Shown one piece after another: positions 4,813-48,760 of a stretch of DNA of 64,000 nt. The notes beneath the pieces are model-generated. The model ran no database searches. It was not told the DNA's origin and saw only the letters and a program-made list of their open reading frames with translations. A program made the translations under genes and the position numbers. Position 1 is the first letter of the stretch, and each line of letters opens with the position of its first letter. The stretch is from an uncultured bacterium (GTDB lineage: Bacteria > Patescibacteriota > Minisyncoccia > Phycocordibacterales > PALSA-1337): positions 368,622 through 432,621 of the forward strand of contig OY969557.1 in the NCBI GenBank assembly GCA_963701025.1, given 5' to 3'.

Positions 4813-4820
4813 ATCTCATA

Positions 4821-6398: not shown

Positions 6399-6456
6399 AG
6401 ATAATATAAGATGATTCCAAATCCATCCTTTATTTTTAATCGAGGATCCAAAACTT

Positions 6457-7713: not shown

Positions 7714-7816
7714 CGCCGACCTTGCTTTTGACGACGCGGCTTACTTTTTCTTACACAGATTTAACATGATTTTAATATATGTGTAAGAAATCCTGACGCA
7801 CGGCGTCACAAAGGCT

Positions 7817-13173: not shown

Positions 13174-13283
13174 ACTTTGGTTGGAAGCGGCGTTGCACAA
13201 TATCCTTTGTGCTACATTTATATACTCTGTGTCAACTCCCCTCCCCTCTCACTCTCGAAAATGCTACAGTTATCGCACTTGCT

Positions 13284-15059
13284 ATGAATCCTTCCGACCC
13301 AGCACTCGCCGCCAAGCGCCATACCCTGGCGCATTTGCTCGCCGCCGCCGTGTTGGAGCTATACCCCGATGCAAAGCCGACCATCGGCCCGGCCATAGAC
13401 AACGGCTTCTATTACGACTTCGAGTTCAGCGCGCCCATCGCCGAATCAGATCTGAAAGACATAGAGAAGAAGATGCGCAAGCTGCTTCCGTCGTGGAAAT
13501 CGATGGAAGGAAAAGAGACGGATGAAAAAGGGGCAAAAGAGACATTTAAAGCTAACCCGTATAAGACGGAACTCATCGATGAAATAATAAATAAAAAGGA
13601 GAAGCTGACCCTCTACACCGCAGGCCATTTTACCGACCTCTGCCGCGGCGGACACAGCGAAAATCCGGCAAAAGAGATCGCGGTCGATTCATTCAAACTT
13701 TCCCGCTTGGCTGGCGCCTATTGGCGCAGCGATGAAAAGAATAAACAGCTTACGCGCATATACGGTCTGGCTTTCAATACCAAAGACGAATTGGACGCGT
13801 ATCTCAACATGATGAAAGAAGCCGAGAAGCGCGATCACCGCAAGCTCGGCAAGGAAATGGATATATTCGAATTCGACGACGACGTCGGACCCGGTCTGCC
13901 ACTTTGGCTACCGAATGGCGGAGCCCTAATAGAAGAATTGGAAAAACTGGCGGTGGAAACCGAATTCAAGGCCGGTTATGTCCGTGTACGTACTCCTCAC
14001 ATCGCCAAAGAATCGATGTACTTGAAGAGTGGTCATTTGCCCTACTATGAAGAGTCCATGTTTCCTCCCATGGAATATGAGGGTGGAAAATATTACCTCA
14101 AAGCGATGAATTGTCCGCACCATCACAAGATATATGCGGCACGGCCCAAGAGCTATCGCGACCTGCCTCTTCGATTGGCCGAATACGGCACCTGCTATCG
14201 CCACGAGAAATCAGGGGAGCTCTTCGGTCTCATGCGCGTGCGCATGCTCGATATGAACGACGCCCATATCTATTGCACGGAGGAACAATTCGCCGACGAA
14301 TTCAAAGCAGTCAATGACATGTATCTGGAATACTTCAGATTGTTCGGCATAGATAAATACGTCATGCGCTTCTCCACCCACGATCCGAAGCGTCTCGGCG
14401 ACAAGTTCGTCAATGAGCCGGAGTTGTGGAAGAAGACCGAGGATATGGTGAGAAATGTCCTGGTCGATTCGAAGATCCCATTCGTCGAAGTGCCCAACGA
14501 GGCCGCCTTCTACGGGCCGAAGATAGACGTCCAGGTCTGGTCGGCTATAGGCCGTGAATTCACCCTGGCGACGAACCAAGTCGACTTCGCCGTGCCGCGC
14601 AGGTTCGGTCTCGAATACAGCGATTCCGACGGCACAAAGAAGACCCCTCTTTGCATCCACCGCGCTCCGCTCGGCACGCACGAGCGCTTTATCGGCTTTC
14701 TCATCGAGCACTACGGCGGCAACTTCCCTCTCTGGTTGGCACCGGTTCAAGTGGCAGTCATACCGGTGACCGAAGCGAATTTTGAAGCCGCCAAAAAAAT
14801 CCATACCTCTCTGCGCGCCCGTATGATCCGTTCCGAATTCGACGCGTCGAACGCCGGTTTCGGCAAGAAAGTCAGGAACGCCAAAAACGCCCGCATTCCT
14901 TATACGATAATTATCGGAGACAAGGATATGGCCGCAGGCAAAGTCACCCTGGAAAGCAGGGACCTGTCTGCCGAACAGGCAGGCAAGGGACAGATCGGGC
15001 AGTTGGGCGTTGAAGAAGTATTGAAAAGGTTTGAGGAGGAGATCAGGGAGAGGAAATAA
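13284..15059 (+). CDS. thrS: Threonyl-tRNA synthetase lacking the N-terminal TGS/editing region
   Basis: Class II motifs and a C-terminal anticodon-binding domain. The start at ATG 13284 (MNPSD) is chosen because upstream in-frame sequence overlaps the sigma-factor gene. Confidence 0.85.
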   Translation: MNPSDPALAAKRHTLAHLLAAAVLELYPDAKPTIGPAIDNGFYYDFEFSAPIAESDLKDIEKKMRKLLPSWKSMEGKETDEKGAKETFKANPYKTELIDEIINKKEKLTLYTAGHFTDLCRGGHSENPAKEIAVDSFKLSRLAGAYWRSDEKNKQLTRIYGLAFNTKDELDAYLNMMKEAEKRDHRKLGKEMDIFEFDDDVGPGLPLWLPNGGALIEELEKLAVETEFKAGYVRVRTPHIAKESMYLKSGHLPYYEESMFPPMEYEGGKYYLKAMNCPHHHKIYAARPKSYRDLPLRLAEYGTCYRHEKSGELFGLMRVRMLDMNDAHIYCTEEQFADEFKAVNDMYLEYFRLFGIDKYVMRFSTHDPKRLGDKFVNEPELWKKTEDMVRNVLVDSKIPFVEVPNEAAFYGPKIDVQVWSAIGREFTLATNQVDFAVPRRFGLEYSDSDGTKKTPLCIHRAPLGTHERFIGFLIEHYGGNFPLWLAPVQVAVIPVTEANFEAAKKIHTSLRARMIRSEFDASNAGFGKKVRNAKNARIPYTIIIGDKDMAAGKVTLESRDLSAEQAGKGQIGQLGVEEVLKRFEEEIRERK

Positions 15060-23883: not shown

Positions 23884-25302
23884 ATGAATCGAACATATAT
23901 CAAGGATCTAAAGGCGCATGTCGGCCAAGAAGTCTCGATTTCCGGTTGGGTGGATATACGCCGCGATCACGGCAAGCTCATATTCATAGACTTGCGCGAC
24001 ATGACGGGCAAAGTGCAATCTGTGGCATTGCCGAATAACAAAGAGGCCCATGAAATGGCTGCCAAAGTCAGGCCTGAATGGGTAGTGCGAGCTACGGGCG
24101 TCGTCAACAAGAGACCTGACAAGATGGTATCCAAAAACAAAGAGACGGGCGAAGTTGAACCGAACGGTGATATAGAGCTCGAATTAAAAAAACTGGAAGT
24201 TTTGAACGAGGCACTCACTCCCCCGCTCGATGTGCGCGGAGATGGCCATGATATCAACGAAGATGTGCGGCTGAAATACCGCTATCTCGATCTTCGTCGG
24301 CCGCGCATGCAGAAGAATATCCGCGCCCGGGATAAGATCATCTCCTTCTTCAGGGATTACATGCATAAAAATGATTTCGTCGAAATCGAGACGCCTATCC
24401 TCATGAAAGGCACACCTGAAGGCTCGCGCGAGTACGTAGTGCCGTCGCGGTTGGAGAACGGCAAATTCTACGTTCTGCCGCAATCGCCCCAACAATTCAA
24501 ACAGCTTTCGATGGTCGCCGGCTTCGAGAAATATTTCCAGATCGCCCGATGTTTCCGCGACGAGGACACCCGCGGCGACCGTCAGCCAGAGTTCACCCAG
24601 TTAGATTATGAGATGTCATTCATAACCCAGGAGGACGTACTCCGTTACACCGAGGCTATGTTTATAGAACTCGTTAAAAAGTTATATCCTCATAAAAAAA
24701 TAACCAAAACGTCATTTCCGAGATTGACCTACGCGGATTGCGTCAAGGAGCATGGCGACGATAAGCCGGATCTGCGCAAGGACAAGAATGATCCGGATGA
24801 ACTGGCTTTTGCCTGGATCGTCGATTTCCCCATGTTCGAAAAGAACGCTGATGGCAATATACAAGCCACTCATCATCCGTTCTGTTCGGTCAAAGATGAA
24901 GATGCGGATAAATTCATGACCGGTAAAGACATCCTGTCCATACGAGCCAATGCGTATGATCTCGTCCTAAACGGCTATGAATTGAGCTCCGGCTCTATAC
25001 GCATCCACAAAGCCAACATGCAGAAGAAAGTTTTCGAATATCTGAATATATCGCCGGAAGAGCAGGAGACCAAGTTCGGCCATATGCTCGAAGCTTTCAG
25101 ATACGGCACGCCTCCGCACGGCGGCTTCGCCCCGGGCATAGACCGCATCGTCATGATCCTCGAGAACGAACCGAACATCCGCGAAGTCATAGCCTTCGCC
25201 AAGACGGGCGAAGGCAAGGACCTCATGATGGGTGCACCGAGCGAGATCTCCGAAAAGCAATTCAGGGAATTAGGGATCGAATTGCGCAAGAAAAAGAAAT
25301 AG
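23884..25302 (+). CDS. aspS: Aspartyl-tRNA synthetase, short archaeal/eukaryal-type (no GAD insertion)
   Basis: Class IIb motifs FQIARCFRDEDTR and GFAPGIDRIVM. Its 472 aa is shorter than the ~590 aa bacterial type. Confidence 0.85.
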   Translation: MNRTYIKDLKAHVGQEVSISGWVDIRRDHGKLIFIDLRDMTGKVQSVALPNNKEAHEMAAKVRPEWVVRATGVVNKRPDKMVSKNKETGEVEPNGDIELELKKLEVLNEALTPPLDVRGDGHDINEDVRLKYRYLDLRRPRMQKNIRARDKIISFFRDYMHKNDFVEIETPILMKGTPEGSREYVVPSRLENGKFYVLPQSPQQFKQLSMVAGFEKYFQIARCFRDEDTRGDRQPEFTQLDYEMSFITQEDVLRYTEAMFIELVKKLYPHKKITKTSFPRLTYADCVKEHGDDKPDLRKDKNDPDELAFAWIVDFPMFEKNADGNIQATHHPFCSVKDEDADKFMTGKDILSIRANAYDLVLNGYELSSGSIRIHKANMQKKVFEYLNISPEEQETKFGHMLEAFRYGTPPHGGFAPGIDRIVMILENEPNIREVIAFAKTGEGKDLMMGAPSEISEKQFRELGIELRKKKK

Positions 25303-33412: not shown

Positions 33413-34639
33413 ATGACCACCAAAGACATCATCCATGAGACGATATCAGCGCTCACCGCCAACAAAGTGCGTACGGCCCTGACCATGCTCGGCATAGTGA
33501 TCGGCATCAGCTCGGTCATAACCATGGTCTCCATAGGCCAAGGAGCCCAAGGCTCCATACAGTCGAGCATCCAAGCTCTCGGCTCTAACCTGCTCATCAT
33601 CTCTCCCGGCGCCCAAAGGACGCCCGGCTATCAGGCTTCGGCCGGCCGCGGATCGTCTCATACGCTTACGCCCGGGGACGCCGCGGCCATAAGCTCCGGC
33701 ATCGCCAACGTAGCCGCCGTCTCGCCGGAAGATTCCGGCCGTTATCAAGTGACCGCCAAAGGCACCAATACCAATACGACCGTGACCGGCGTCACCACGG
33801 CTTATGCCGACGTCCATAATGTCCAGGTCAATGACGGCTCATTCATTTCCGATAACGACAATAAGAGCCTGAACAAAGTGGCAGTCATCGGCCCGACTAC
33901 CGCCACGGATCTCTTCGGCACCGGAGTCGAGCCGGTCGGCCAAACCATAGTCATCAAAGGCATAAACTTCACCGTGATCGGCGTGACGGTCTCGAAGGGC
34001 ACCACCGGCTTCAATAACCAAGACGATATGATATATATCCCCTTGCAGGACTCGGAGCTCTTCCTGGTCGGAAATACGACATATCTGACGTCAGTCAGCG
34101 TGTCCGCAGTCTCAGCCGACGCCATGACGCAAGTCCAGAATGACATAACCGCACTGCTTCTCCAGAGGCACAAGATCAGCGATCCGACGCAGGCTGACTT
34201 CAACGTTCTGAACCAGGCGTCCATCGTCTCGGCGGCATCATCAGTCACCGGCACTTTCACCATACTGCTCGGCGCCGTAGCCGGCATATCCCTCGTCGTC
34301 GGCGGCATCGGCATCATGAATATGATGCTCACCACCGTGACCGAGCGCACCCGCGAGATCGGCCTGCGCAAAGCCATCGGCGCCAAGCGGCGCAACATCA
34401 GCACCCAATTCCTGACAGAGGCCGTGGCTTTGACCGTGATAGGCGGAGCCATCGGTGTCTTCCTCGGCTGGCTCATATGTTACGGAATGACCTATTTCGG
34501 CATCTTGCAAACGTCTATCTCGATCTCATCCATCCTCCTAGCTTTCGGCGTCTCCGCGGCCATCGGCATCGTTTTCGGCTATTACCCCGCCCGCCGCGCA
34601 GCTGGATTGAATCCGATAGAGGCCTTGAGGTATGAGTAG
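33413..34639 (+). CDS. ABC transporter permease, MacB/FtsX family
   Basis: N-terminal TM, a large periplasmic domain and a C-terminal FtsX four-TM bundle (TERTREIGLRKAIGA). Confidence 0.85.
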   Translation: MTTKDIIHETISALTANKVRTALTMLGIVIGISSVITMVSIGQGAQGSIQSSIQALGSNLLIISPGAQRTPGYQASAGRGSSHTLTPGDAAAISSGIANVAAVSPEDSGRYQVTAKGTNTNTTVTGVTTAYADVHNVQVNDGSFISDNDNKSLNKVAVIGPTTATDLFGTGVEPVGQTIVIKGINFTVIGVTVSKGTTGFNNQDDMIYIPLQDSELFLVGNTTYLTSVSVSAVSADAMTQVQNDITALLLQRHKISDPTQADFNVLNQASIVSAASSVTGTFTILLGAVAGISLVVGGIGIMNMMLTTVTERTREIGLRKAIGAKRRNISTQFLTEAVALTVIGGAIGVFLGWLICYGMTYFGILQTSISISSILLAFGVSAAIGIVFGYYPARRAAGLNPIEALRYE

Positions 34640-34651
34640 AGACTTCAAATT

Positions 34652-35098
34652 TCAATTCGTCTTAGTCGCTAACATTTTCTTGATCTCATCCCGGATTTTG
34701 ATCAACTCAATTTCGGCCATAGGCTCACGATCACCTGTTCTATAAAGCATGCTCCTTGGATCATAGCCGAGCAGTCCGGTATCCCCTTCTTTTCGACTAA
34801 TGATGTGCAGATGGAAATGTGGGATGGACTGTCCGGCTAATTTCTCCTGATTCCACACGCAATTGAATCCTTCTGCGCCATATAGCTTGCGTAATGTGGC
34901 CATAATCTTATCCGCCAATTCCAATATCGCTAAACGTTCCGCGGACGTCAGTTCACCCAATGTCTTTGCGCACTTGCGCGGGGCTATGAGGATATGCCCA
35001 AGAGTGATCGGAATGTTCGTGGGAAAGGCCCAAGCCAGGTCATTGCCGATGATCTCGCGGGCCTTGATATCTGGGTCTGAGCAGTATATGCAGGTCAT
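34652..35098 (-). CDS. HIT-family (histidine triad) nucleotide hydrolase
   Basis: HFHLHII triad. Lies in an AT-rich segment. Confidence 0.8.
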   Translation of the reverse strand: MTCIYCSDPDIKAREIIGNDLAWAFPTNIPITLGHILIAPRKCAKTLGELTSAERLAILELADKIMATLRKLYGAEGFNCVWNQEKLAGQSIPHFHLHIISRKEGDTGLLGYDPRSMLYRTGDREPMAEIELIKIRDEIKKMLATKTN

Positions 35099-35820
35099 AG
35101 ATTGTATAGGTATATCAATCTCTCAAGGCCAAATCCAAATCCTACGAATTTTTTCTCTAGGATATTTGTATTTATAATATTCTCTTTATCTACAATAAAG
35201 TTATGCTTATTGAGATTCTCCCCAAGATTGCCACATGCTGCTATCTCAACGCACTCACTTTTGTTTACAAAGAATATTTCAAATTTTGATGTCTGATGGC
35301 TATCGCTTCCTTGAGTATCATAAAATGACTCATCTATTGGATAATCTGTGACAATGAGCCAATACTTGCCTTGTAGCTTCTCTTTGTCTATTTCAGAAAA
35401 TCCCTTATGAGTCATATATTTGATTTCCGAATCGGATAGTTTGGGTAAAGCTAGACGCTCTTCTAATGATTTCAGTATTTCGATATATTTATTGATCACA
35501 TAGCTCATTGTTCCTTGCGACTGATAGATGTCAACTACGGTGAATTCGTATTGATACAAACTAGAGAGTTTCTTTTCGTCTCTAAACATGCTACCTATCC
35601 AAAAAAACTTATCGTGATTCACCCCGACCTGCCAAATGTCGGGCTCGGGATTATAGCGTAAAAAGAGATTCTCTTTAATTTTAAAACTATCGGTGTTTTC
35701 AATCTTGTAATCTATAGTCGAATACAGATGATGTTCGAAAAAATCCTGACTCTTAAGGAGGTCTCTTATAACATTTATGAACAGACTAAGCTTGTATTGT
35801 TGTTGATAACTGGGATTCAT
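35095..35820 (-). CDS. Standalone class IIb aminoacyl-tRNA-synthetase catalytic-core paralogue (AsnA/EpmA-like amino-acid ligase), no anticodon-binding domain
   Basis: Motif 2 (IGSMFRDE...YEFTVVD) and motif 3 (GFGFGLERL). Only 241 aa, in an AT-rich segment with different codon usage. Confidence 0.6.
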   Translation of the reverse strand: MNPSYQQQYKLSLFINVIRDLLKSQDFFEHHLYSTIDYKIENTDSFKIKENLFLRYNPEPDIWQVGVNHDKFFWIGSMFRDEKKLSSLYQYEFTVVDIYQSQGTMSYVINKYIEILKSLEERLALPKLSDSEIKYMTHKGFSEIDKEKLQGKYWLIVTDYPIDESFYDTQGSDSHQTSKFEIFFVNKSECVEIAACGNLGENLNKHNFIVDKENIINTNILEKKFVGFGFGLERLIYLYNL

Positions 35821-35943
35821 AGAATAATATTAACACAAACCGCTCCTTGATTTCCTAACCCCGTATATGATACTCTTTAGCGGTAGGTTTTTACCTACCG
35901 GATTTTATTCGAGGCCCGCCTCACGGCGGGTCTTTGATTTGTC

Positions 35944-36441
35944 ATCGATATCTGAACCTGTCCATGTTCAGTCTATATTCAAAATCCTCGGCAAATAATA
36001 CCTTACTGACCGTCCCGTCGTTGACAGCGTCAATAGTCTCTCCGGCTATATGATTCCTCGCTCCGAATACATAAGACACCTTGCTGAAATCGTCCTTAAG
36101 ATTGTGAACCCTGAAATATTCTTGTTATCGTGAATGTATTTGACTCGTTTTGTCACCACATCGAATCTGTTCATTTCGGCACGCCTGAGTATGTTGCTTG
36201 ACCAAGGTGTAAGAGTAGTCGAATTAGAATCACTCCCGTAATCAGAACCGTAATAAAATCTCCTTAAACTGCTGTCGCCCTTAGAAAAATGCCTCGCCAA
36301 CGCCGCCAGCTCCTGAATACCGATTTTCCATCGCAAGCTTTGTTTCCATTTCTCGACATTGCTGAAATCGACTATCACTATGGTGCGCGACAGCTTATCG
36401 GAAAAAGAGTCTGTGAATTTTTTGATCTCTGTTTTATTCAC
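35944..36441 (-). pseudogene. NYN/LabA-like domain protein, apparently frameshifted near 36046
   Basis: The N-terminal ORF (RTIVIVDFSNV...) stops at 36046. An adjacent frame continues with ...GETIDAVNDGTVSKVLFAEDFEYRLNMDRFRYR to about 35944. Confidence 0.4.
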
Positions 36442-36523
36442 TGCGCCGTTGATTTTACAGCACCTATTTATCTTGTGAAGTTCCCATGAGCAAAAAATCG
36501 TGTGCCTATGCTAAAATACCTCC

Positions 36524-37207
36524 ATGAAAACCGCTCTCATCACCGGCGTCGGACGCGGCATAGGCAAGGCGTTGGTGAAGAAATTCATGAAAGAGGGATA
36601 CGCCGTCGTCGGCACTTCCCAGACTGGCGTTGTCGATTATTCAGATCAGAATCTGAAGGTGTTTCAGCTCGATTTAACTTCCACGACTTCTATAAAGAAA
36701 TGTGCAGACCAGATCATCGAAAGCGGCATAAAGATAGATATCATGATAAATAATGCCGGCGTCAATATAGATTATGACGAGACCCATGTGCTCATAAACA
36801 TGCTCCGAAATACGCTCGAAGTGAATCTTTTTGGTACCGTAAACTTCACTGAACAGGTCATACCGGCGATGAGCGCCGTCAGCCACATAGTGAACATATC
36901 TTCGCAAGCGGGCTCTATAGCTGACGCGGAAAATGTACTCGATACGCATTATCCATATCACTACCCCGCTTACAAGATATCCAAAGCTGCACTAAACATG
37001 TACACACGCACATTGGCTCTGCGATTCAAACATGAGAATGCGGGCATCATCGTCTCTTCCGTCCACCCCGGCTGGGTGCGCACAGACATGGGCGGCGAGG
37101 ATGCGCCGACTACACCGGAAGATGCAGCCGAGAATATCTACAAGCTGGCTATTTCAAGACCGGAGACGGGACAATTTTGGTTCAACGGAAAAAAATATCC
37201 GTGGTAA
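36524..37207 (+). CDS. Short-chain dehydrogenase/reductase (SDR)
   Basis: TGVGRGIG cofactor motif, NNAG, and catalytic YxxxK (YPAYKISKAA). Confidence 0.85.
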   Translation: MKTALITGVGRGIGKALVKKFMKEGYAVVGTSQTGVVDYSDQNLKVFQLDLTSTTSIKKCADQIIESGIKIDIMINNAGVNIDYDETHVLINMLRNTLEVNLFGTVNFTEQVIPAMSAVSHIVNISSQAGSIADAENVLDTHYPYHYPAYKISKAALNMYTRTLALRFKHENAGIIVSSVHPGWVRTDMGGEDAPTTPEDAAENIYKLAISRPETGQFWFNGKKYPW

Positions 37208-37252: not shown

Positions 37253-37603
37253 TTAATTGACGCTTCCGAGGGAGACGTCAACGACTTTCTTCGGAGTCCG
37301 GGCGGTGAATTGGCGGCCGCCGAGGAGGATTAGGATAGAACCTATGATGAAAAGGAGGTAGAAGAGGATCGACAAAGCGTTCTGATACGCCGACAATGGA
37401 TAGCCGAGCTCCGGTGAGAATATTATGGACGCCGCGGTGAGGACACCGAAGGTGATGAGCAACATGCCGAAAGAGATGAGCCGCATGGCTTTGCGCAGGG
37501 CGCTCAAGAACGGGCTCACTGATTGATACAGATACCCGGCCGAGACTACGCCGACGATGACGGCCGAGAAGATCATGATCGCCTGGATATCCGCCGTGGT
37601 CAT
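37253..37603 (-). CDS. Small membrane protein (three or four TM), hypothetical
   Basis: Hydrophobic 116-aa ORF. Confidence 0.45.
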   Translation of the reverse strand: MTTADIQAIMIFSAVIVGVVSAGYLYQSVSPFLSALRKAMRLISFGMLLITFGVLTAASIIFSPELGYPLSAYQNALSILFYLLFIIGSILILLGGRQFTARTPKKVVDVSLGSVN

Positions 37604-37720
37604 GGGGATATTATATCATAAATGAAATAGTTATCATCGAAGATATCCACTATTCAAATAATAGGGTTATTTTTTGGTGTGGCACGGTCGGCCTCTCTCC
37701 CTAACATACCCCCTATTTCA

Positions 37721-37812
37721 AATCTTGCTATAACAAGATTTTCCTATGGACATGGACGGGAAGAAGCCATTTTCTGGGAAAATTAACGCGGGAATCTTGC
37801 TGTGACAAGATT
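37721..37812 (+). promoter_or_regulatory. Two copies of a 7-bp-arm palindrome AATCTTG-N6-CAAGATT (37721-37740 and 37793-37812) upstream of the PadR gene; putative operator pair
   Basis: Both palindromes read directly. They lie 72 bp apart and 90-180 bp upstream of the PadR start. Confidence 0.5.
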
Positions 37813-37904
37813 TCAAAAAGAGGCATCAGACAGAACATGTCATTCCTCCCCAGCTCAAGAAAGCGAGCGGTGGCAAAAGTGGCAAAAAGAGTATAATAGA
37901 CGCC

Positions 37905-38372
37905 ATGCCTATTAAATTCCCCTCAATGAAACGTGGCCTGCTTGAGTTCGTAGTGCTCAAGACTCTCGTCGCTGAACCTATGTATGCCTCGCAACTTCTT
38001 GCCTATCTGGCAACAACCGAATTTCGGACGCCTGAAGGCACCCTCCATCCCCTATTGTGCAAACTACGCGGCCGCCGATTACTTGAGCAAAGCTATGAAG
38101 AATCAGACGGCGTCTCTGCCAGAAAATATTACTACCTTACAGATCTCGGCCGCACACACATGAAACACCTCGTGGAATATTGGAAAACCTTGAACGATAC
38201 TCTGGCGAATATCACCCCAGAACAAATCAGAAAAGACCGTGATGTCGCAAATGAATACGGCGCCCGATCTCACGCTCACACCTCCACCTTCGAGAACAGC
38301 CACGCGCCTATGGATAGGAAAAGCGCCGACACCCCGAGGATGACGAGAGCGTCCACGCCGATAGCGTATTGA
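37905..38372 (+). CDS. PadR-family transcriptional regulator
   Basis: Winged-helix PadR core (LEFVVLKTL...GTLHPLLCKL...YYYLTDLG). The C-terminal tail overlaps the convergent permease gene by 97 nt. Confidence 0.75.
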   Translation: MPIKFPSMKRGLLEFVVLKTLVAEPMYASQLLAYLATTEFRTPEGTLHPLLCKLRGRRLLEQSYEESDGVSARKYYYLTDLGRTHMKHLVEYWKTLNDTLANITPEQIRKDRDVANEYGARSHAHTSTFENSHAPMDRKSADTPRMTRASTPIAY

Positions 38373-39086: not shown

Positions 39087-39917
39087 CTAACGGCGGCCGC
39101 CACTAAAGGCTTGCCGCATCTGACGCAAATGATCCAGACCGCCCGCTTCCTGCTCGCGGATCTCATGACCGGTCAGCTTGATGAAGGCGTCTTCCAGATT
39201 GGCCGTGCCGGAAGCGGCGATTATGTTCGCTGGGGTATCGCTAGCGATGATCTTGCCATGATCAATGACGGCAACCTGTTGGGCGGAGCGCTCGGCTTCT
39301 TCCATGTAATGCGTGGTGAAAAAGATGGTCAAGCCCTGTTCTTCGTTGAGCTTCTTCAAGTACGTCCATATGTAGTTCCTGGTCTGCGGATCAAGGCCTG
39401 TGGTCGGCTCATCGAGAAAGAGGATGGCCGGTGTGTGCAGAAGCCCGCGGGCGATCTCCAGGCGCCGCTTCATGCCGCCGGAAAAGGTCTTGACCAGGCT
39501 GTCCTTGCGGTCCCAGAGCTCCACGAACTTCATCAAGTCTTCGATCTTCCTGGGCGTCTCCGCGCGCGGCACGCCATAGAGGCCGGCGTGGAAGAACATG
39601 TTCTCGTAGGCGGTGAGCTCGTCGTCGAGCGAAGGATCCTGGAAGACGATGCCGAACGACTGCCGCACGTCATGCGAACGCCGGACGGGATCCATGCCGT
39701 TCACGTGGATCGTGCCCGACGTCGGGTGAACCAGGGTCGTGAGCATTTTGATGGTGGTGGTCTTGCCCGCTCCGTTCGGGCCCAGGAAGGCGAAGATCGA
39801 GCCGGCGGGCACATCGAAAGATATATTATCGACAGCCTTCAAGCCGCCCTTGAACGTCTTGGTCAAGTTCTTGACGGAAATGGCTACTGTCTTTTCTGAT
39901 TGGTTCGGTTGGGGCAT
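39087..39917 (-). CDS. ABC transporter ATP-binding protein (DrrA-like)
   Basis: GPNGAGKTT, LSGGMKRRLEIARGL, LFLDEPTTGLD. Confidence 0.85.
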   Translation of the reverse strand: MPQPNQSEKTVAISVKNLTKTFKGGLKAVDNISFDVPAGSIFAFLGPNGAGKTTTIKMLTTLVHPTSGTIHVNGMDPVRRSHDVRQSFGIVFQDPSLDDELTAYENMFFHAGLYGVPRAETPRKIEDLMKFVELWDRKDSLVKTFSGGMKRRLEIARGLLHTPAILFLDEPTTGLDPQTRNYIWTYLKKLNEEQGLTIFFTTHYMEEAERSAQQVAVIDHGKIIASDTPANIIAASGTANLEDAFIKLTGHEIREQEAGGLDHLRQMRQAFSGGRR

Positions 39918-40095
39918 AGCAATAGAGACGGATGAATGGCGCTTATAATACATACTACCATTCGATGAATTGCGGTGCGAGGGTTTTTGGTGGCGTCATC
40001 CCTGAATCATATATCTTTACATTATATCGTTATTTGACTTTCGACGAGATATACTATTAAATCAACATCAAAAGACCGAAACTGGAAGGAACATT

Positions 40096-40536
40096 ATGAA
40101 ATGCGACATATGCAAGAAGCCAAATCCGGAACTGTTGATAATCCTGCCTATTCATCAAGCAGACGGGAGACTCGACACCATAGCCTGCGAAAAGTGCGCC
40201 AAGGAGTCGAAAGCATACTGTAAGAAACACCGCCGTCCTCACCAAGGCTTCATTGACGGCACAACTGCTTGCTTACAGTGCATCGAGGAGTTGGTGAAAG
40301 TCAACAAAGACGACGCCACATCCATCAGGGACCGCGTGCGGGAAGCCTTGCCACGAGATCAGGTCGAAGATCTAAATGATGCCGCAGAAATCAGCGCGGA
40401 AGTGACGGGCAGTTCCGAAAGCATCGCTGTACTACGCTTCATCGCATCAAAAGCGATGCGCTCGAATCAGACGATCGAAGAGGTGATCAATGAAATCACC
40501 GAATCACATTCCGTCGACTACATTCTCTGGAGATGA
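40096..40536 (+). CDS. Cys-rich zinc-binding hypothetical protein
   Basis: CDICKK...CEKC...CLQC motifs. Confidence 0.5.
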   Translation: MKCDICKKPNPELLIILPIHQADGRLDTIACEKCAKESKAYCKKHRRPHQGFIDGTTACLQCIEELVKVNKDDATSIRDRVREALPRDQVEDLNDAAEISAEVTGSSESIAVLRFIASKAMRSNQTIEEVINEITESHSVDYILWR

Positions 40537-40565
40537 CAAGGGCCGTGTTTGTCACTTCAGGCCGC

Positions 40566-40596
40566 CAAACTTTATCTGGCGGTTTTTTATTCGCTA
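40566..40596 (+). terminator. Rho-independent terminator
   Basis: The hairpin ccgcca-aactttatc-tggcgg is followed by ttttttatt. Confidence 0.6.
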
Positions 40597-40600
40597 TCCC

Positions 40601-41645
40601 TCACAGCACCGGCTCGTATTTCTTTTTCCTAAATAGCCAGCCTTCAAGCGAGTATCTGTCGTAGCCGTAGAATATGTAAGCGATGGGGATGCCGATCAAG
40701 ATGAGGTGCGGCCAGACGACTTCGCCGAAAAAGATGAGGGAGAGCGTCAACCAGAAGAGAAGAAAAAAGGCGGTGAAGCGGATCTCGATGCCGAGGATGA
40801 AGAACAGACCGATGGCAAGCTCGACGATAGCGGCGCCTAGGACCAGGAAATGCGGCTCGAAGCCGAGGATCTTGTCCAGGTGGTATTGCTCCACGGTGAA
40901 AAGAGCCAGATTATTGTGGATGATCTTGGCATAAGCCGAGGCATATATGAGGGCCACGCCGAAGAGGACGCGCAGGATCATGAAGCTCCGCGGGGCGAGA
41001 TAGGCCTGGACCTTATTGACAACCTTTTTCTTCGTCGCCATGAGTGTATCCAAGCTGAAGTTATGCGAGCCGAGAATGAGAAGGACGATGATCTCGCCCA
41101 GATAATTCACATAGGTCAGCATGTACCAGCCGTGATTCCGGATGGCGATGACATAGAGTACGAGAGCGACCAGCGCGGCCAGGCGGACATAAAGACCCAA
41201 GATAGCCATAATGCCTATGACCACGAGCACGATCGTTACCAGTCCTGCCCACAGCCCGAAATTCTGGGCCAGCGGTAATTCGGGACCGTATATCGTCTTG
41301 ATAATACGCAGCCGCCAAGAACGACACGCCGATGGTCACGCGAGCGATCGTGGTGGCGTATTTGCGGAGCTTGATCAGCATCGGATCCAGCCTGCGCTCG
41401 AGGAAACGCAGGGTGGATATCCAGAAGACACCGAAGACCGTGAGCACGCCGATGAAAGCCCAGAAAGAGAATTGGCCGATATTATCCATGGCCACGTCGA
41501 ACAGATTGAATGAGGGCGTATCTATAGCTTGGGTGACTTGGCCGGACGTGAGGACATAGACTTCGTGGGCGGAGGAGAGGGTTGGAACAGCGATCACCAC
41601 TAACATAATGGCCGCGAACGCGAATAAAGACATACGATTGATCAT
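40601..41645 (-). pseudogene. Large polytopic membrane protein (DoxX-like C-terminal half) split by an apparent frameshift near 41300
   Basis: The ORF 41645-41061 (signal plus TM, ...FLAAAYY) and ORF 41230-40601 are both hydrophobic. The upstream extension of the second frame (…IIKTIYGPELPLAQNFGLWAGLVTIV) joins the first with a single-nt shift. Confidence 0.5.
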
Positions 41646-43432
41646 GATGTTTTTACTATATGTTTAAACGCATACTCCAGCGTCCCGCCAACTTTCTTCC
41701 CCGGATTGAAAACGCCTTTCGGATCCCAGATCTTCTTTGCCTCTTCGAAAAGTTTGTAGACTTCTTCGCCGTACTGCATCTTGACGAACGGCGTCCTGAT
41801 AATACCATCATTGTGCTCGCCAGTGATGGAACCATGGAATTCGTGGACGAGAGTGTAGACCTTGACTGACAATTCTTCGATGATCTTGTGGGCCTTCGGA
41901 TCGGCCAGATCCATGAGCGGGATGATATGGAAATTGCCGTCGCCGACGTGGCCGGCGATGGTATAGGTCAAGTCCTTCTTGTAGGGCTCGAGCAAGGCAT
42001 AGAGCTTTGGCAGAAAGACCGGCAAATCCTTCGGCATGACCACGAAATCGTCTATGAACGGCGCCGTGCGCACGCCGTGGATATGTTTGCGGAGCATGTT
42101 GAAGCTCTCGCGTCGGATGACCCAGTATTTATTCTCGTCGTTGGTGGTTTTCGTCACCCGGGTCTTTTCATGGAATTGTTTGAGTGAAGTTTGCGCCTTT
42201 GTGGCCATGCTCAAGGCTTCTTCGTCGGAATCGGCCGTGAATTCAGCCATGAGGACGAGCTTCGGCAAGCCGCCTTCGAGTACAGCCACCATCTCCGGCA
42301 CGAATTCGAGGCCAAGGGTCAGCAAATTGCCGCCCATCTGCTTCATCAGTTGAGGCAGGAATTTGAAAGCGACTTTCAGGGTCTGATCATCGTACGATTC
42401 GAAACTCTCGGGCTTGAAATCGAGTATATGCGTGGCGGTATCGCCGAGCTGGTCGAGACTGGTCAGGAATACGACCAACAGATGTGAATACTTTTTCGGC
42501 TTGACCAAAGCGAATTCTATTTCGGTGATGAGGCCGAGCGTGCCTTGAGAGCCGACGATCATCTTGGTCAGGTCGAAATAGGGTATAGGGTTTAGGGTAT
42601 AGTCCTCTACCCTATCCCCTACACCCTTGTTCATCACATTCCATAGGTAATAGCCACAGGAATTCTTCGAGACTATAGGCTTTGCTTTTTGAAGAAGTTC
42701 GTAGTTGGAGTCGATGAGGTCGAACATTTTGCGGTAAATTTCGCCCTCGAAGGTGGGCAGTTTCTTTTTTTCCTCCACTTTAGTCGAGTAAAGTGGCTTG
42801 AATTCATACTCATTGCCGTCGGCACAGACCATCTTTAACCGTCTGATATATCTTTCAGTTTTGCCATAGGTCAACGTCTTCTCACCGCCGGCATTATTCG
42901 CCACCATACCGCCCACGGTGCACAGCTCGCGCGACGCCGGATATGACGGCATGATCTGTCCTCCTTTCTCCAAAGTAGCCTTATCAAAATCGCGATAGTA
43001 AACGCCTGGTTCGGTCACGGCATAACCTGATATTTCCACGCCATTTATATCCTCTTGCTTCTCTTCTTTGACCTTTTTTATATGATTGAAATATTTCGTA
43101 AATGAGACGACGACTGACTCTGTGAGCGGCCCGCCTGACATATCCGTGCCGGCCGAACGCGCGGTCAAGGTGACAAGTGGTTTTGGTTCCGCACTCGCCT
43201 TGCCGCCCGGCGGGGTGTTACGGCCAAGCGCGTATTTGACTAATTTCTTGATGTCTTCGACATCCTTCGGATGGACGACCGCCTGCGGCCTGACCTCAAA
43301 TAGGCTCGCGTCATGGCTGGCGGCGACGAGCGATTCGTCTGATGTCTCGACGTCGCCGGAGATGAGTGACGAGAGATCTGAAGCTTTCAGCATGGGTAGA
43401 ATTATAACACGGGCGCAAGAACATATTGACAA
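41642..43432 (-). CDS. FAD-linked oxidase (GlcD/D-lactate dehydrogenase family; FAD_binding_4 plus C-terminal domain)
   Basis: FAD-binding PCMH motifs (ARSAGTDMSGGPL) and a C-terminal FAD-oxidase_C region. Confidence 0.8.
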   Translation of the reverse strand: MSICSCARVIILPMLKASDLSSLISGDVETSDESLVAASHDASLFEVRPQAVVHPKDVEDIKKLVKYALGRNTPPGGKASAEPKPLVTLTARSAGTDMSGGPLTESVVVSFTKYFNHIKKVKEEKQEDINGVEISGYAVTEPGVYYRDFDKATLEKGGQIMPSYPASRELCTVGGMVANNAGGEKTLTYGKTERYIRRLKMVCADGNEYEFKPLYSTKVEEKKKLPTFEGEIYRKMFDLIDSNYELLQKAKPIVSKNSCGYYLWNVMNKGVGDRVEDYTLNPIPYFDLTKMIVGSQGTLGLITEIEFALVKPKKYSHLLVVFLTSLDQLGDTATHILDFKPESFESYDDQTLKVAFKFLPQLMKQMGGNLLTLGLEFVPEMVAVLEGGLPKLVLMAEFTADSDEEALSMATKAQTSLKQFHEKTRVTKTTNDENKYWVIRRESFNMLRKHIHGVRTAPFIDDFVVMPKDLPVFLPKLYALLEPYKKDLTYTIAGHVGDGNFHIIPLMDLADPKAHKIIEELSVKVYTLVHEFHGSITGEHNDGIIRTPFVKMQYGEEVYKLFEEAKKIWDPKGVFNPGKKVGGTLEYAFKHIVKTS

Positions 43433-47357: not shown

Positions 47358-48365
47358 TTATAGCAGGTATGCCGATCTTAACTTCTCGATTTGGGCTTTT
47401 AGTTTATGACTATTGCCGTGACTGATCAGACCGAGATAAGACTGTACGGTCTCCGCTTTTCCGCCTTTTTCCTCGATCGTTCTAAACATCTTCCGCTTCG
47501 TTGCAGTTCGTAGCACACGATGATCCGTAAAATTGATCCATCCGAGGTAGTCGACGCCGGAGGCAATGGTGCGTATGGATATTTTCTTGGGATGTAAATG
47601 AAGGTGTAATCTGTCGTTCAAAAAAGATCGTATCTGCGGAATGAGCCCGACAAGCCAGTCCCGATCTGATGAGAAGAGAACGAAATCATCGGCGTAGCGG
47701 ATATAGTATTTTGCTTTAAGTTTGTGCTTCACGAACTGATCGAACTCATTCATGTAGATATTGACTAGGAGCTGTGAAGTGAGGTTGCCGAGAGGTAGAC
47801 CGATGCCGTCGGCAGTCGAGTGAAAGCTGCCAATGATTTCAGAGAGGAGCCAGATAATATCCTTGTCTGGAATATAATCTTTGATGATTTCAACGAGTAC
47901 TCTCTGGTCAATAGATGCGAAGAATTTCTTGATGTCGCATTTAAGCACCCAAGCAGTCTGCGTGTGATTCTGCGTCACTTTGTATGAAAAATCTCGGAAT
48001 CGGTTTACTGCTTCATGTGTCCCCTTTCCGAACCTGCATGAAAATGAATCCGCAATGAATATCTTGTCGAAAAAGATATGGAGTTCACGATAGATTGCGT
48101 GATGAAGTAGCCTGTCTCTCACGCTCGCCTTGTGGATGTTCCTCGGCTTTGGGTCGGATATATTGAACGCTTCGTATGATGAATGCTTGTAAGTCTTTGC
48201 CACAAGGTCATTATGAAGCGAAATTATATTGTCCATCAGATTTCGTTCGAATGTCTGAACGTCTTTTCTGGCCCGTTTTCCTTTCACGAACTCTTTCCAT
48301 GCCTCGATGATATTTTCGAGGGAAATGATATGATTGTAGCCATGTCCAAATTGAATCCGTCGCAT
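47358..48365 (-). CDS. DGR-type reverse transcriptase
   Basis: RT domains 1-7 with YADDFV. The DGR-diagnostic motif 4 is GIGLPLGNLTSQ (SQ instead of the group II SP). The N-terminus (FNISDPKPRNIHKASVRDRLLHHAI...SFSCRFGKGTHEAV) is typical of DGR RTs. No maturase or endonuclease domain. Confidence 0.85.
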   Translation of the reverse strand: MRRIQFGHGYNHIISLENIIEAWKEFVKGKRARKDVQTFERNLMDNIISLHNDLVAKTYKHSSYEAFNISDPKPRNIHKASVRDRLLHHAIYRELHIFFDKIFIADSFSCRFGKGTHEAVNRFRDFSYKVTQNHTQTAWVLKCDIKKFFASIDQRVLVEIIKDYIPDKDIIWLLSEIIGSFHSTADGIGLPLGNLTSQLLVNIYMNEFDQFVKHKLKAKYYIRYADDFVLFSSDRDWLVGLIPQIRSFLNDRLHLHLHPKKISIRTIASGVDYLGWINFTDHRVLRTATKRKMFRTIEEKGGKAETVQSYLGLISHGNSHKLKAQIEKLRSAYLL

Positions 48366-48378
48366 GTCAGAGAAGTCG

Positions 48379-48389
48379 CCCCCCCCCCC
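48379..48389 (+). repeat. C11/G11 homopolymer in the ~40-bp gap between the divergent avd and RT starts
   Basis: Read directly. Confidence 0.9.
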
Positions 48390-48406
48390 ACGGATTTTTA
48401 CCTGTA

Positions 48407-48760
48407 TTGAGTAAGGTGAAAGAAACATATTTGTTGTGGTATGGATATTACCAGATTTTACCCAAGGCACACAGGCATTCCCTTGGACAGAGGATTGACG
48501 GCCTTTTTATCGAAGTCATAGAGGCCATAACTGCCGCCAGTTTCTTGTCTCCCATTGAAAAACATCCGTATGTCCGGTTGGCCATCAAAAAGACCGACAC
48601 GCTCAAGGTCTTGCTCATGGTTCTGTGGGAGACCAAATCGCTTGATGACAAGAAATATATAGCCCTGTCGGTGAAGTTGGACGAGATAGGCAAGAATCTG
48701 GGCGGCTGGAACGGACAACTCACAAGACAAAACTCCCCCGTAAAAACGAGGGAGAAATGA
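48407..48760 (+). CDS. Accessory variability determinant (Avd)-like four-helix-bundle protein, encoded on the strand opposite to the RT, TR and VR
   Basis: 117 aa. LPKAHRHSLGQRIDGLFIEVIEAITAAS and a C-terminal KLDEIGKNLGGW resemble bAvd (…IAEVGRILGSWI) and the TIGR02436 family. TTG/GTG start. Confidence 0.7.
   Translation: MSKVKETYLLWYGYYQILPKAHRHSLGQRIDGLFIEVIEAITAASFLSPIEKHPYVRLAIKKTDTLKVLLMVLWETKSLDDKKYIALSVKLDEIGKNLGGWNGQLTRQNSPVKTREK

What the first reader, a model, noticed from the sequence alone, without database searches (positions are those of the whole stretch)
34652..36500. AT-rich islet encoding a HIT hydrolase next to a standalone class IIb aaRS catalytic core, plus a frameshifted NYN gene
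- GC content and codon usage drop sharply here, pointing to acquisition.
- A 241-aa protein retains class II motifs 2 and 3 (FRDE…, GFGFGLERL) but has no anticodon-binding domain. It looks like AsnA/EpmA-type amino-acid-adenylate-forming ligases.
- Its neighbour is a histidine-triad hydrolase, the family that cleaves aminoacyl-adenylates and dinucleoside polyphosphates.
- Together they could form an aminoacyl-AMP or Ap4A-like making and breaking module, or a tRNA-independent amino-acid ligase with a proofreading partner.
- Tandem hairpins (ggtagg/cctacc; cccgcc/ggcggg) close the islet.
Basis: partly seen in the sequence, partly recalled or inferred. Interest (0 to 1): 0.55.

Follow-up and report, generated by a model that had tools for sequence, protein, structure and literature searches.

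The report
Acquired mini synthetase-like gene beside resident HIT
A recently acquired gene for an unusually small, uncharacterised enzyme related to the catalytic core of lysyl-tRNA synthetase landed directly in front of an ordinary resident HIT hydrolase gene in an ultra-small bacterium, so the pairing looks accidental while the enzyme family itself is new and unexplained.

Summary
The sequence features are real. There is a 241-aa class IIb aaRS catalytic core (35095-35820, minus strand) with intact motifs 2 and 3. A HIT gene overlaps it by ATGA, an NYN pseudogene lies upstream, and two stable hairpins sit between them. This gene is the lowest-GC stretch of the window.

The proposed aaRS-HIT module is not supported.
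- A syntenic sister contig has SDR and HIT 42 nt apart.
- The window carries a 1.4-kb insert (35100-36508: aaRS-like gene, hairpins, NYN remnant) exactly at the HIT start codon.
- HIT is a resident Paceibacteria gene with at least 433 homologues.
- None of 33 other distinct aaRS-like loci has an adjacent HIT.

The aaRS-like protein belongs to a small orphan family. It has about 40 representatives among 1.84 billion proteins, in Patescibacteria and DPANN archaea. It forms its own clade and is not AsnA, EpmA or LysRS, although profiles place it nearest LysRS/EpmA. The adenylation residues are conserved, and the side-chain pocket keeps only part of the lysine-binding set.

The gene is AT-richer than its flanks in 26 of 26 loci. 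In 9 of 33 loci it lies within 250 nt of a tRNA gene.

Best reading: a horizontally mobile amino-acid-adenylating ligase whose acceptor is unknown.

The parts
35095..35820 (-). Standalone class IIb aaRS-like catalytic core, 241 aa. It belongs to an orphan family found in Patescibacteria and DPANN archaea.
34652..35098 (-). Resident HIT-family hydrolase gene, 148 aa, with the HFHLHII triad. It is not part of the insert.
   Evidence: PF01230 E=1.6e-17. There are 433 homologues, mostly 70-90% identical and named Paceibacterota/Patescibacteria HIT. A syntenic copy in sister contig L058 is 78% identical at the nucleotide level.
35095..35098 (-). ATGA overlap. The TGA stop of the aaRS-like gene lies within the resident ATG-A of HIT.
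   Evidence: Sequence. The sister HIT begins with the same ATGAC.
35100..36508 (.). Inserted AT-rich segment of about 1.41 kb, absent from the sister genome.
   Evidence: In blastn of the window against L058, homology stops at 35099 and resumes at 36509. The sister has 26 unaligned bases there, within a 42-nt SDR/HIT intergenic region.
35911..35934 (.). G+C-rich hairpin 1 (cccgcc/ggcggg core, 10 pairs).
   Evidence: joint fold z=-4.95. The T-tail is on the plus strand.
35881..35900 (.). Hairpin 2 (ggtagg/cctacc core, 8 pairs).
35945..36441 (-). NYN/LabA (PF01936-family) pseudogene. Residues 1-113 are read at 36441-36103. Residues 147-203 are read in another frame at 36115-35945. Residues 114-146 are deleted.
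   Evidence: Homologues are 203-aa PF01936 proteins. tblastn with P0309 gives 84% and 74% identity for the two pieces. The remnant itself has no Pfam hit.
36452..36479 (-). Promoter-like site (TTCACA-16-TAAAAT) upstream of the NYN remnant. It is a candidate promoter for the insert and, by read-through, for HIT.
   Evidence: Consensus scan only, 10 of 12 matches.
36524..37207 (+). Resident short-chain dehydrogenase gene, forming the right flank of the insertion site.
   Evidence: PF00106 E=5.6e-35. Syntenic with L058.
33413..34639 (+). Resident MacB-type permease gene forming the left flank. In the sister, NUDIX and CYTH genes lie between it and HIT.

Best explanation
**Shown**
- A 1.4-kb foreign segment was inserted into the short SDR/HIT intergenic region of a Paceibacteria-type (Patescibacteria) genome. 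It carries an intact aaRS-like gene, two hairpins and a decayed NYN gene.
- The insert ends so close to the HIT start codon that the aaRS-like stop codon lies in HIT's ATGA. The aaRS-HIT pair is therefore an insertion junction, not a conserved module.
- The aaRS-like protein belongs to a small, strongly conserved orphan family of 233-255-aa class IIb catalytic cores.
- The family occurs only sporadically, in Patescibacteria and DPANN archaea. The gene is AT-richer than its host DNA wherever it is found, and it has no conserved gene partner.

**Inferred mechanism**
- The protein binds ATP through its motif 2 and motif 3 residues and two metal-binding glutamates.
- It binds an alpha-amino acid in the canonical LysRS orientation, through a conserved Glu at the alpha-amino site.
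- It forms an aminoacyl-adenylate.
- The substrate pocket keeps two of the five LysRS lysine side-chain ligands (Asp and Tyr at the E278 and Y280 positions of E. coli LysU). The other three are replaced by small or hydrophobic residues. The substrate is therefore probably a cationic, lysine-like but not identical amino acid.
- The acceptor is unknown. My leading guess, at about one in three, is an RNA acceptor: a tRNA 3' end or a tRNA nucleoside, recognised without the anticodon.

In this genome HIT is probably co-transcribed with the new gene. It could incidentally hydrolyse released adenylate, but that is not its conserved role.
For: **Insertion**
- Sister contig L058 has the order HlyD-ABC-MacB / CYTH-NUDIX-HIT / SDR. 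Nucleotide identity is 67-82% on both sides, and only 26 unaligned bases stand where the window has 35100-36508.
- GC3 is 0.37 for the gene against 0.74 for the flanks. This is the lowest-GC window of the 64 kb.

**HIT is resident**
- 433 homologues, many 70-90% identical, in Paceibacteria.
- No HIT lies next to any of the 33 other distinct loci, and no neighbour family recurs in more than 3 groups.

**The family**
- 52 clusters in 5.8 billion proteins.
- 40 representatives at E<1e-10 in 1.84 billion.
- 10 of 185,579 species genomes, all Patescibacteria or DPANN.
- None in IMG/VR, phage or plasmid collections.
- The tier-1 plus tier-2 clade has 50/50 bootstrap support.

**Fold and active site**
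- Fold.
- Mapping onto E. coli LysU: E59=E240, R80=R262, E82=E264, F93=F274, D97=E278, Y99=Y280, E181=E414, E192=E421, R234=R480. All of these positions are invariant or nearly invariant in the family.
- The window copy keeps 74 of 75 conserved positions.

**Mobility**
- The gene's GC is below that of its flanks in 26 of 26 loci.
- GC3 is 14-32 points lower in every host with GC3 above 0.5 (no difference at L020, GC3 0.48).
- A tRNA gene lies within 250 nt in 9 of 33 loci, in 8 of 9 with the gene on the tRNA 3' side.
Against: - No substrate or acceptor was tested. Pocket assignments rest on profile alignment, not on coordinates.
- The alignment around E192-N204 is ambiguous by one or two residues.
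- The distance tree does not resolve the sister group. NJ placed the clade nearer AsnRS/AspRS, with no support. Profile hits favour LysRS/EpmA, with 93 of 97 distant hits.
- The window copy alone has Tyr where 39 of 44 members have the His equivalent to LysU H270. This copy might be impaired.
- The exact ATGA junction could reflect selection for co-expression with HIT rather than accident.
- tRNA adjacency could be an integration footprint and say nothing about function. No integrase or att repeat was found to confirm that either.
Confidence: 0.7

Rival explanations
1. The aaRS-like enzyme and HIT form a co-adapted module that makes and breaks an aminoacyl-adenylate or an Ap4A-type dinucleotide, or a ligase with a proofreading partner.
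For: - The ATGA overlap implies co-translation in this genome.
- LysU-made lysyl-AMP is a known Hint substrate (PMC3130732, citing Chou and Wagner 2007).
- The family is nearest LysRS/EpmA by profile.
- The sister's HIT heads a HIT-NUDIX-CYTH operon, and one homologue (L004) is followed by a CYTH gene. There are thus two loose links to nucleotide-polyphosphate enzymes.
Against: - No adjacent HIT in 33 other distinct loci.
- HIT is a ubiquitous resident gene found without the aaRS-like gene.
- The pair arose from a datable insertion.
- The two genes have very different GC3, 0.37 against 0.56.
- The CYTH of L004 is unrelated by tblastn to that of L058.
Confidence: 0.1
2. An anticodon-blind tRNA-directed enzyme. 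It would aminoacylate tRNA 3' ends for a non-ribosomal use, or modify a tRNA nucleoside in the way GluQRS/YadB does.
For: - tRNA genes lie within 250 nt in 9 of 33 loci, against about 0.5-1 expected. Five of them are upstream on the same strand, 32-244 nt away, which is compatible with co-transcription.
- In L001 a cyclodipeptide synthase, an enzyme that uses aminoacyl-tRNA, is the divergent neighbour 54 nt away.
- A motif 2 loop of LysRS-like length, with conserved basic residues, is retained.
- Translation genes are direct neighbours in some loci: HisRS 14 nt upstream, RF1 7 nt upstream.
Against: - The adjacent tRNAs have nine different anticodons.
- Three of the nine are convergent, so they cannot be co-transcribed.
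- 8 of 9 lie with the gene on the tRNA 3' side, as insertion at tRNA genes would give.
- Translation genes are about as frequent next to the gene as expected in such small genomes.
- Family pI ranges from 4.7 to 9.9, with no consistent basic character.
Confidence: 0.25
3. A miniature EpmA/PoxA that acylates EF-P (or aIF5A in archaea) with a lysine-like amino acid.
For: - It gives the best profile-profile match, hhalign E=6.6e-27 at 99.8% probability.
- It has the same architecture, a LysRS-like core without an anticodon-binding domain.
- The weak NCBIfam top hits are EpmA models.
- EF-P lies 2.4 kb away in L006.
Against: - NCBIfam scores are 23 bits against cut-offs of 264-287.
- The clade is separate from EpmA.
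- The EF-P of the one carrier genome that could be read has the loop RMQQRKA, not KPGKGQ.
- No lysine aminomutase gene was seen among the called neighbours.
- The family also occurs in DPANN archaea.
- The roughly 80-residue insertion of LysRS and EpmA is missing.
Confidence: 0.07
4. An AsnA-type or archaeal AS-A-type asparagine synthetase supplying Asn to an auxotrophic episymbiont.
For: - It has the same domain-less architecture.
Against: - The family profile scores AsnA at -2.4 bits.
- None of 97 distant hits is AsnA-like.
- There is no NCBIfam AsnA hit.
- The positions equivalent to the Asp-binding Lys198 and Arg489 of AspRS are Ile and Leu. This is my mapping combined with textbook AspRS residues.
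- AsnA is the most distant group in the tree.
Confidence: 0.03

Closest known systems
EpmA (PoxA/GenX/YjeA), the EF-P (R)-beta-lysine ligase
   Different: - About 85 residues shorter, with the insertion between motifs 2 and 3 missing.
- Forms a separate clade.
- Far below the NCBIfam cut-offs.
- No EF-P or EpmB association.
- Found in archaea as well as bacteria.
- Family-specific motifs: NPEPDIW, FFWIGS, DYPxxESFYD, EIAACGxLGENLN.
Class II lysyl-tRNA synthetase (LysS/LysU) and its link to Hint
   Same: It accounts for 70 of 97 distant profile hits. The ATP, metal and alpha-amino ligands are shared. Asp and Tyr occupy the E278 and Y280 positions of LysU. LysU-made lysyl-AMP is hydrolysed by Hint (PMC3130732).
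   Different: - No OB-fold anticodon-binding domain.
- The N424, F426 and E428 equivalents are replaced by Ala, Cys/Gly and Leu.
- 17.5 bits against a 468-bit cut-off.
- It is an accessory, sporadic gene.
AsnA and archaeal asparagine synthetase A (AS-AR)
   Same: They are domain-less class IIb cores that use the adenylate for a tRNA-independent reaction, and the fold is similar.
   Different: There is no sequence-level affinity, and the Asp-binding residues are absent.
GluQRS (YadB), a truncated GluRS that glutamylates queuosine in tRNA-Asp
   Same: It is a precedent for an aaRS core without an anticodon-binding domain that transfers the activated amino acid to a tRNA nucleoside (review PMC9437257).
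   Different: It has a class I fold and is unrelated in sequence. The comparison is an analogy of logic only.
PylRS catalytic domain
   Same: It is a small (about 270 aa) class II core with an enlarged hydrophobic pocket for a lysine derivative. It gives the second-best group of PDB sequence hits.

Membership tests
Class IIb aaRS catalytic-core superfamily (Pfam PF00152, tRNA-synt_2) | Antiparallel-sheet class II fold with motif 2 (fRxE) and motif 3 (GxGxGxxR), and a Pfam score above the gathering threshold. | tested here: met
Lysyl-tRNA synthetase, class II | N-terminal OB-fold anticodon-binding domain plus the catalytic core, reaching the NCBIfam cut-off. | tested here: not met
   The protein is 241 aa and starts at the catalytic core. 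NF001756 gives 17.5 bits against 468, and TIGR00499 gives 15.2 against 427.6.
Lysyl-tRNA synthetase, class II | Lysine side-chain ligands (LysU E278, Y280, N424, F426, E428). | tested here: inconclusive
   D97 and Y99 are invariant at the E278 and Y280 positions. The N424, F426 and E428 equivalents are Ala, Cys/Gly and Leu, but the alignment there is ambiguous by 1-2 residues. The LysU residue roles come from my own knowledge.
EpmA (EF-P lysyl/beta-lysyl ligase) | Reaches the equivalog cut-off of the curated models. | tested here: not met
   NF006828 gives 23.3 bits against 264, and TIGR00462 gives 22.6 against 286.9. The family forms a separate clade with 50/50 support.
EpmA (EF-P lysyl/beta-lysyl ligase) | The host has EF-P with the acceptor Lys in a KPGKGQ-type loop, and usually epmB. 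| tested here: not met
   The only carrier EF-P available (L006) has the loop RMQQRKA. No radical-SAM neighbour was seen. The family occurs in archaea. Whole genomes were not available.
AsnA / archaeal asparagine synthetase A | Sequence membership (NCBIfam AsnA models) and Asp-binding residues. | tested here: not met
   There is no AsnA model among the hits. The family profile scores E. coli AsnA at -2.4 bits. None of 97 distant hits is AsnA-like.
HIT superfamily (the neighbouring gene) | HxHxHxx triad and the HIT domain. | tested here: met
   PF01230 gives 64.4 bits against 21.5. The sequence reads PHFHLHII.
Conserved aaRS-like/HIT gene pair (the proposed module) | Recurrent adjacency of the two families in independent genomes. 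| tested here: not met
   None of 33 other distinct loci has the adjacency. The sister genome has HIT without the aaRS-like gene at the same site.
NYN/LabA (PF01936) for the upstream remnant | NYN domain. | tested here: inconclusive
   The remnant itself gets no Pfam hit. It is 84% and 74% identical over two pieces to 203-aa proteins that carry PF01936. The central 33 residues are deleted. It is a pseudogene of an NYN gene.
Anti-phage defence systems (PADLOC) | A match of the aaRS-like protein to a defence-system model. | tested here: not met
   No hit for the aaRS-like protein. HIT gives only a generic weak ThsC (HIT family) match, 30.9 bits.

The most novel reading that the evidence does not exclude
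The family could be a natural minimal (233-255 aa), anticodon-blind class IIb synthetase. It would spread horizontally between Patescibacteria and DPANN archaea and lodge preferentially at the 3' side of tRNA genes. It would attach a non-canonical, lysine-like amino acid to tRNA, either at the 3' end or on a nucleoside as GluQRS does. That would make it the smallest known natural class II enzyme acting on RNA.
Probability: 0.15. Interest if true: 0.8.

Novelty: new variant of a known kind. Interest (0 to 1): 0.4.

Why it matters
Stand-alone aaRS catalytic cores such as EpmA, AsnA, HisZ, aa:carrier-protein ligases and GluQRS have each revealed a new use of aminoacyl-adenylate chemistry.

This family is smaller than any of those. 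It is strongly conserved, at 53% mean column identity between bacterial and archaeal members. It is confined to ultra-small episymbionts and is evidently exchanged between the two domains.

Knowing its substrate and acceptor would add a new branch to aaRS-paralogue biology. It would also give a natural reference point for minimal class II enzymes.

For genome annotation, the case is a warning. A tight, overlapping gene pair with an appealing biochemical story (synthetase plus HIT) can be the scar of a recent insertion.

Tried and rejected
- **Conserved HIT pairing.** Surveyed 49 loci forming 33 distinct groups besides the window. Rejected.
- **Any conserved neighbour.** All-against-all clustering of flanking ORFs found nothing in more than 3 groups. 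NYN, CYTH, NUDIX, CDPS and SSF do not recur.
- **Defence system.** PADLOC has no hit for the aaRS-like protein.
- **Phage or plasmid vehicle.** None in IMG/VR, INPHARED or PLSDB. PHROGs gave nothing.
- **Integrase or att repeats at the tRNA-adjacent loci.** None found.
- **Leader RNA or T-box.** No Rfam match in 34500-36700.
- **A dedicated tRNA partner of pylT type.** The adjacent tRNAs are of nine different anticodons.
- **Recent duplication of the resident AspRS (23884-25302).** Only 33% identity over 54 residues.
- **Phylogeny.** The first NJ run timed out. The second was invalid because of NaN distances. The third is usable but does not resolve the sister group.
- **afdb50 fold library.** Unavailable.
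- **Literature.** Five searches found no description of this family.
Full report
**Observation**

The region holds three minus-strand reading frames:
- a 148-aa HIT protein at 34652-35098;
- a 241-aa protein at 35095-35820;
- a 131-aa ORF at 36046-36441.

The HIT protein matches PF01230 (E=1.6e-17) and carries the triad PHFHLHII. The 241-aa protein passes the Pfam threshold for class II D/K/N synthetases (PF00152, 30.7 bits against 25). It carries FRDE (motif 2) and GFGFGLERL (motif 3) and has no anticodon-binding domain. Its stop codon overlaps the HIT start as ATGA.

The composition drop is real. The aaRS-like gene is the lowest-GC 726-bp window in the 64 kb (0.343; mean 0.536, sd 0.043). 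Its GC3 is 0.37 against about 0.74 for the neighbouring transporter genes.

The two hairpins, at 35881-35900 and 35911-35934, fold with z=-4.95.

**What the neighbours are**

The HIT protein is an ordinary, very common Paceibacteria/Patescibacteria protein. It has 433 homologues, most of the best 120 being 70-90% identical.

The closest one (88%) lies on a 279-kb contig whose locus (L058) is collinear with the window at 67-82% nucleotide identity. The two gene orders are:
- sister: HlyD-like, ABC ATPase, MacB permease, then CYTH, NUDIX, HIT, then a divergent SDR 42 nt from HIT;
- window: the same flanks, but NUDIX and CYTH are missing and 35100-36508 is extra.

The extra segment begins immediately after the HIT start codon. 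The TGA of the aaRS-like gene lies in HIT's own ATGA, which the sister also has. HIT and SDR are therefore resident genes. The acquired islet is the aaRS-like gene, the hairpins and the upstream ORF.

That upstream ORF is a pseudogene of a 203-aa NYN/LabA protein. Residues 1-113 (84% identity) and 147-203 (74%) are read in different frames, and residues 114-146 are deleted. Pfam does not recognise the remnant itself.

The hairpins sit between the NYN remnant and the aaRS-like start. Their T-tails are on the plus strand. They are internal to the islet and do not close it.

**Is the HIT pairing conserved?**

No. I collected 49 loci carrying homologues. They form 33 distinct groups besides the window.
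- A search with the window HIT finds it only in the window, plus a distant HIT 2.3 kb away inside a PheRS operon in L010.
- No flanking protein family recurs in more than three closely related groups.
- NYN, CYTH, NUDIX, CDPS and SSF-permease neighbours are each one-offs among the loci whose DNA was held. One further carrier contig, listed without DNA, also has an NYN gene just downstream.

**What the aaRS-like protein is**

The family is small.
- 52 clusters at 90% identity among 5.8 billion proteins.
- 40 representatives at E<1e-10 among 1.84 billion. These split into a tight tier of about 235-255-aa proteins and a more distant tier (P0066-P0079) that shares the motifs LR(Y/F)N(P/T)EP(D/E)IW, F..VD.Y, SF(Y/F)(D/E) and E(I/L)A..G..G.N.N.
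- Only 10 of 185,579 species genomes carry it. These are Nomurabacteria, Minisyncoccia, Saccharibacteria and other Patescibacteria, plus Nanoarchaeota, Pacearchaeota and Woesearchaeota.
- It is absent from viral, phage and plasmid collections.

Sequence profiles point to the lysine branch.
- Against the PDB, the family profile hits LysRS first (E=3e-6), then PylRS.
- Against E. coli proteins it scores LysU 27.4, EpmA 12.6, AspRS 7.8, AsnRS 5.8 and AsnA -2.4 bits.
- Of 97 distant hits in the exhaustive search, 70 are LysRS-like, 23 EpmA-like, 2 AspRS-like, 2 AsnRS-like and none AsnA-like.
- hhalign gives E=3e-23 to LysRS and 7e-27 to EpmA.

A distance tree recovers the two tiers as one clade in 50 of 50 bootstraps but does not resolve its sister group. 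The family is therefore its own lineage, not nested in AsnA, EpmA, LysRS, AspRS or AsnRS.

Five literature searches, including a 2022 review of aaRS paralogues, found no description of it.

**Active site**

From the hhalign mapping to E. coli LysU and the column counts:
- The ATP and metal ligands are invariant or nearly invariant: R80=R262, E82=E264, F93=F274, E181=E414, E192=E421, R234=R480.
- The alpha-amino ligand is invariant: E59=E240.
- Of the lysine side-chain ligands, D97 (=E278) and Y99 (=Y280) are invariant.
- The N424, F426 and E428 positions hold Ala, Cys/Gly and Leu. The alignment there is uncertain by a residue or two.
- The roughly 80-residue insertion of LysRS and EpmA between motifs 2 and 3 is missing.
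- Additional invariant acidic and aromatic residues (E164, S165, F166, D168, W63, W154, N202, N204) are family-specific.

The LysU residue roles are from my own knowledge of the LysU structures.

My inference is a competent amino-acid adenylating enzyme whose substrate is cationic and lysine-like but not handled as in LysRS.

The window copy keeps 74 of 75 strongly conserved positions. The exception is Tyr in place of the near-invariant His that aligns with LysU H270.

**Evidence of mobility**

- The gene's GC is below that of its flanks in 26 of 26 loci, by 9.9 points on average.
- Its GC3 is 14-32 points lower in every host whose GC3 exceeds 0.5. It matches only low-GC hosts, mostly DPANN.
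- The window shows the largest gap, 0.37 against 0.74, which is consistent with a very recent arrival.

There is a further, unexpected pattern. In 9 of 33 distinct loci a tRNA gene lies within 250 nt of the aaRS-like gene. The anticodons are Glu-CTC, Ala-CGC, Val-CAC, Ser-GGA, Ser-TGA, Ser-CGA, Trp-CCA, Asp-GTC and Arg-CCT. In 8 of the 9, the gene is on the tRNA's 3' side.

The rest of these loci hold only 5 tRNAs in about 199 kb, so about 0.5-1 adjacency was expected. My Poisson estimate is p of roughly 1e-6 to 1e-8.

I found no integrase and no att-like repeat beyond the gene. The L019 spacer does contain a fragment resembling a tRNA 3' half. A tier-2 member lies in an integrase island at tRNA-Pro, in an operon with an SSF-type permease.

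The pattern fits insertion, or homology-anchored transfer, at tRNA genes. It could also reflect co-expression with tRNAs. I could not separate the two.

**Function**

The genome has a canonical AspRS (23884-25302, 636 bits) and ThrRS (13137-15059) nearby. The mini protein is not a recent copy of that AspRS.

The sister genome lacks the gene at the syntenic site, and the family is rare, so the gene is accessory.

An EpmA-like role is weakly supported. The only carrier EF-P I could read has the loop RMQQRKA rather than KPGKGQ. The family also occurs in archaea, and the curated EpmA models are missed by a factor of ten.

An AsnA role is rejected on sequence.

A tRNA-directed role is possible. The tRNA adjacency, a cyclodipeptide synthase as divergent neighbour in L001, and HisRS and RF1 as immediate upstream genes point that way. 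It is unproven.

Hint enzymes do hydrolyse LysU-made lysyl-AMP (PMC3130732). The resident HIT may therefore act on leaked adenylate here, but only as a by-product of the insertion.

**Verdict**

The described features exist. The acquisition claim holds for 35100-36508 only.

The HIT partnership is an insertion junction rather than a module.

The interesting object is the orphan, mobile, miniature class IIb ligase family and its unexplained affinity for tRNA-gene flanks.

Noticed in passing
Loci L006, L019, L023 (=L002), L024, L035, L040, L041, L042, L043: In 9 of 33 distinct homologue loci a tRNA gene lies within 250 nt of the aaRS-like gene. The nine anticodons differ, and six have C34. In 8 of 9 the gene is on the tRNA's 3' side. 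About 0.5-1 such adjacency was expected. No integrase or att repeat was found.
   Followed up: partly
Window 34640-34670, against L058 7458-8442: The sister genome has a HIT-NUDIX-CYTH operon. The window has lost the NUDIX and CYTH genes (about 1.6 kb), which leaves HIT 12 nt from the convergent MacB permease gene.
   Followed up: partly
Window 37589-38277 and 39885-41651: Two further segments are absent from the sister contig. One holds a PadR-like regulator gene. The other holds a DoxX-like ORF. The neighbourhood is an indel hot spot.
   Followed up: no
L055 2642-5428 (also L056, L057): A distant (tier-2) relative of the family overlaps by 4 nt a gene for a 531-aa SSF-type permease. The pair lies in an island with a Gp49/HTH toxin-antitoxin pair and an integrase next to tRNA-Pro(GGG), in a Gram-negative-type genome.
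   Followed up: partly
L001 4257-4946 (= L021): A cyclodipeptide synthase gene (PF16715, E=4.6e-12) is the divergent neighbour of the homologue, 54 nt away, in a Nomurabacteria genome. An integrase, an excisionase-like HTH protein and a serine recombinase lie just upstream.
   Followed up: no
Window 47358-48470 (minus strand): A reverse-transcriptase gene. It scores 138 bits on the group II intron RT/maturase model (cut-off 300) and also gives weak Drt3a and retron RT matches. Its kind is undetermined.
   Followed up: no
Window 1379-8965: A cluster of GH6 and GH8 glycoside hydrolases, a cellulose-synthase-like GT2, a PMT_2 protein and a GT2/GtrA protein. This is an unusual carbohydrate locus for an ultra-small bacterium.
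   Followed up: no
Window 23884-25302: A canonical bacterial-type AspRS of only 472 aa. The curated model matches in two stretches, which suggests that the usual insertion domain is absent.
   Followed up: no
L006 257-1033: The EF-P of a carrier genome has the loop RMQQRKA instead of KPGKGQ. Its called product (258 aa) carries an odd Arg/Gly-rich C-terminal extension, possibly a frameshift or assembly artefact.
   Followed up: no
Window 35507-35534 (minus strand): A promoter-like match (TTGACA-16-AACAAT, 10 of 12) lies inside the aaRS-like gene. It could drive HIT independently of the insert. This is a consensus match only.
   Followed up: no
Window residue 89 of the 241-aa protein (codon at about 35554-35556): The window copy is the only one of 44 family members with Tyr at the position aligned with LysU H270. 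Thirty-nine have His and four have Arg.
   Followed up: partly
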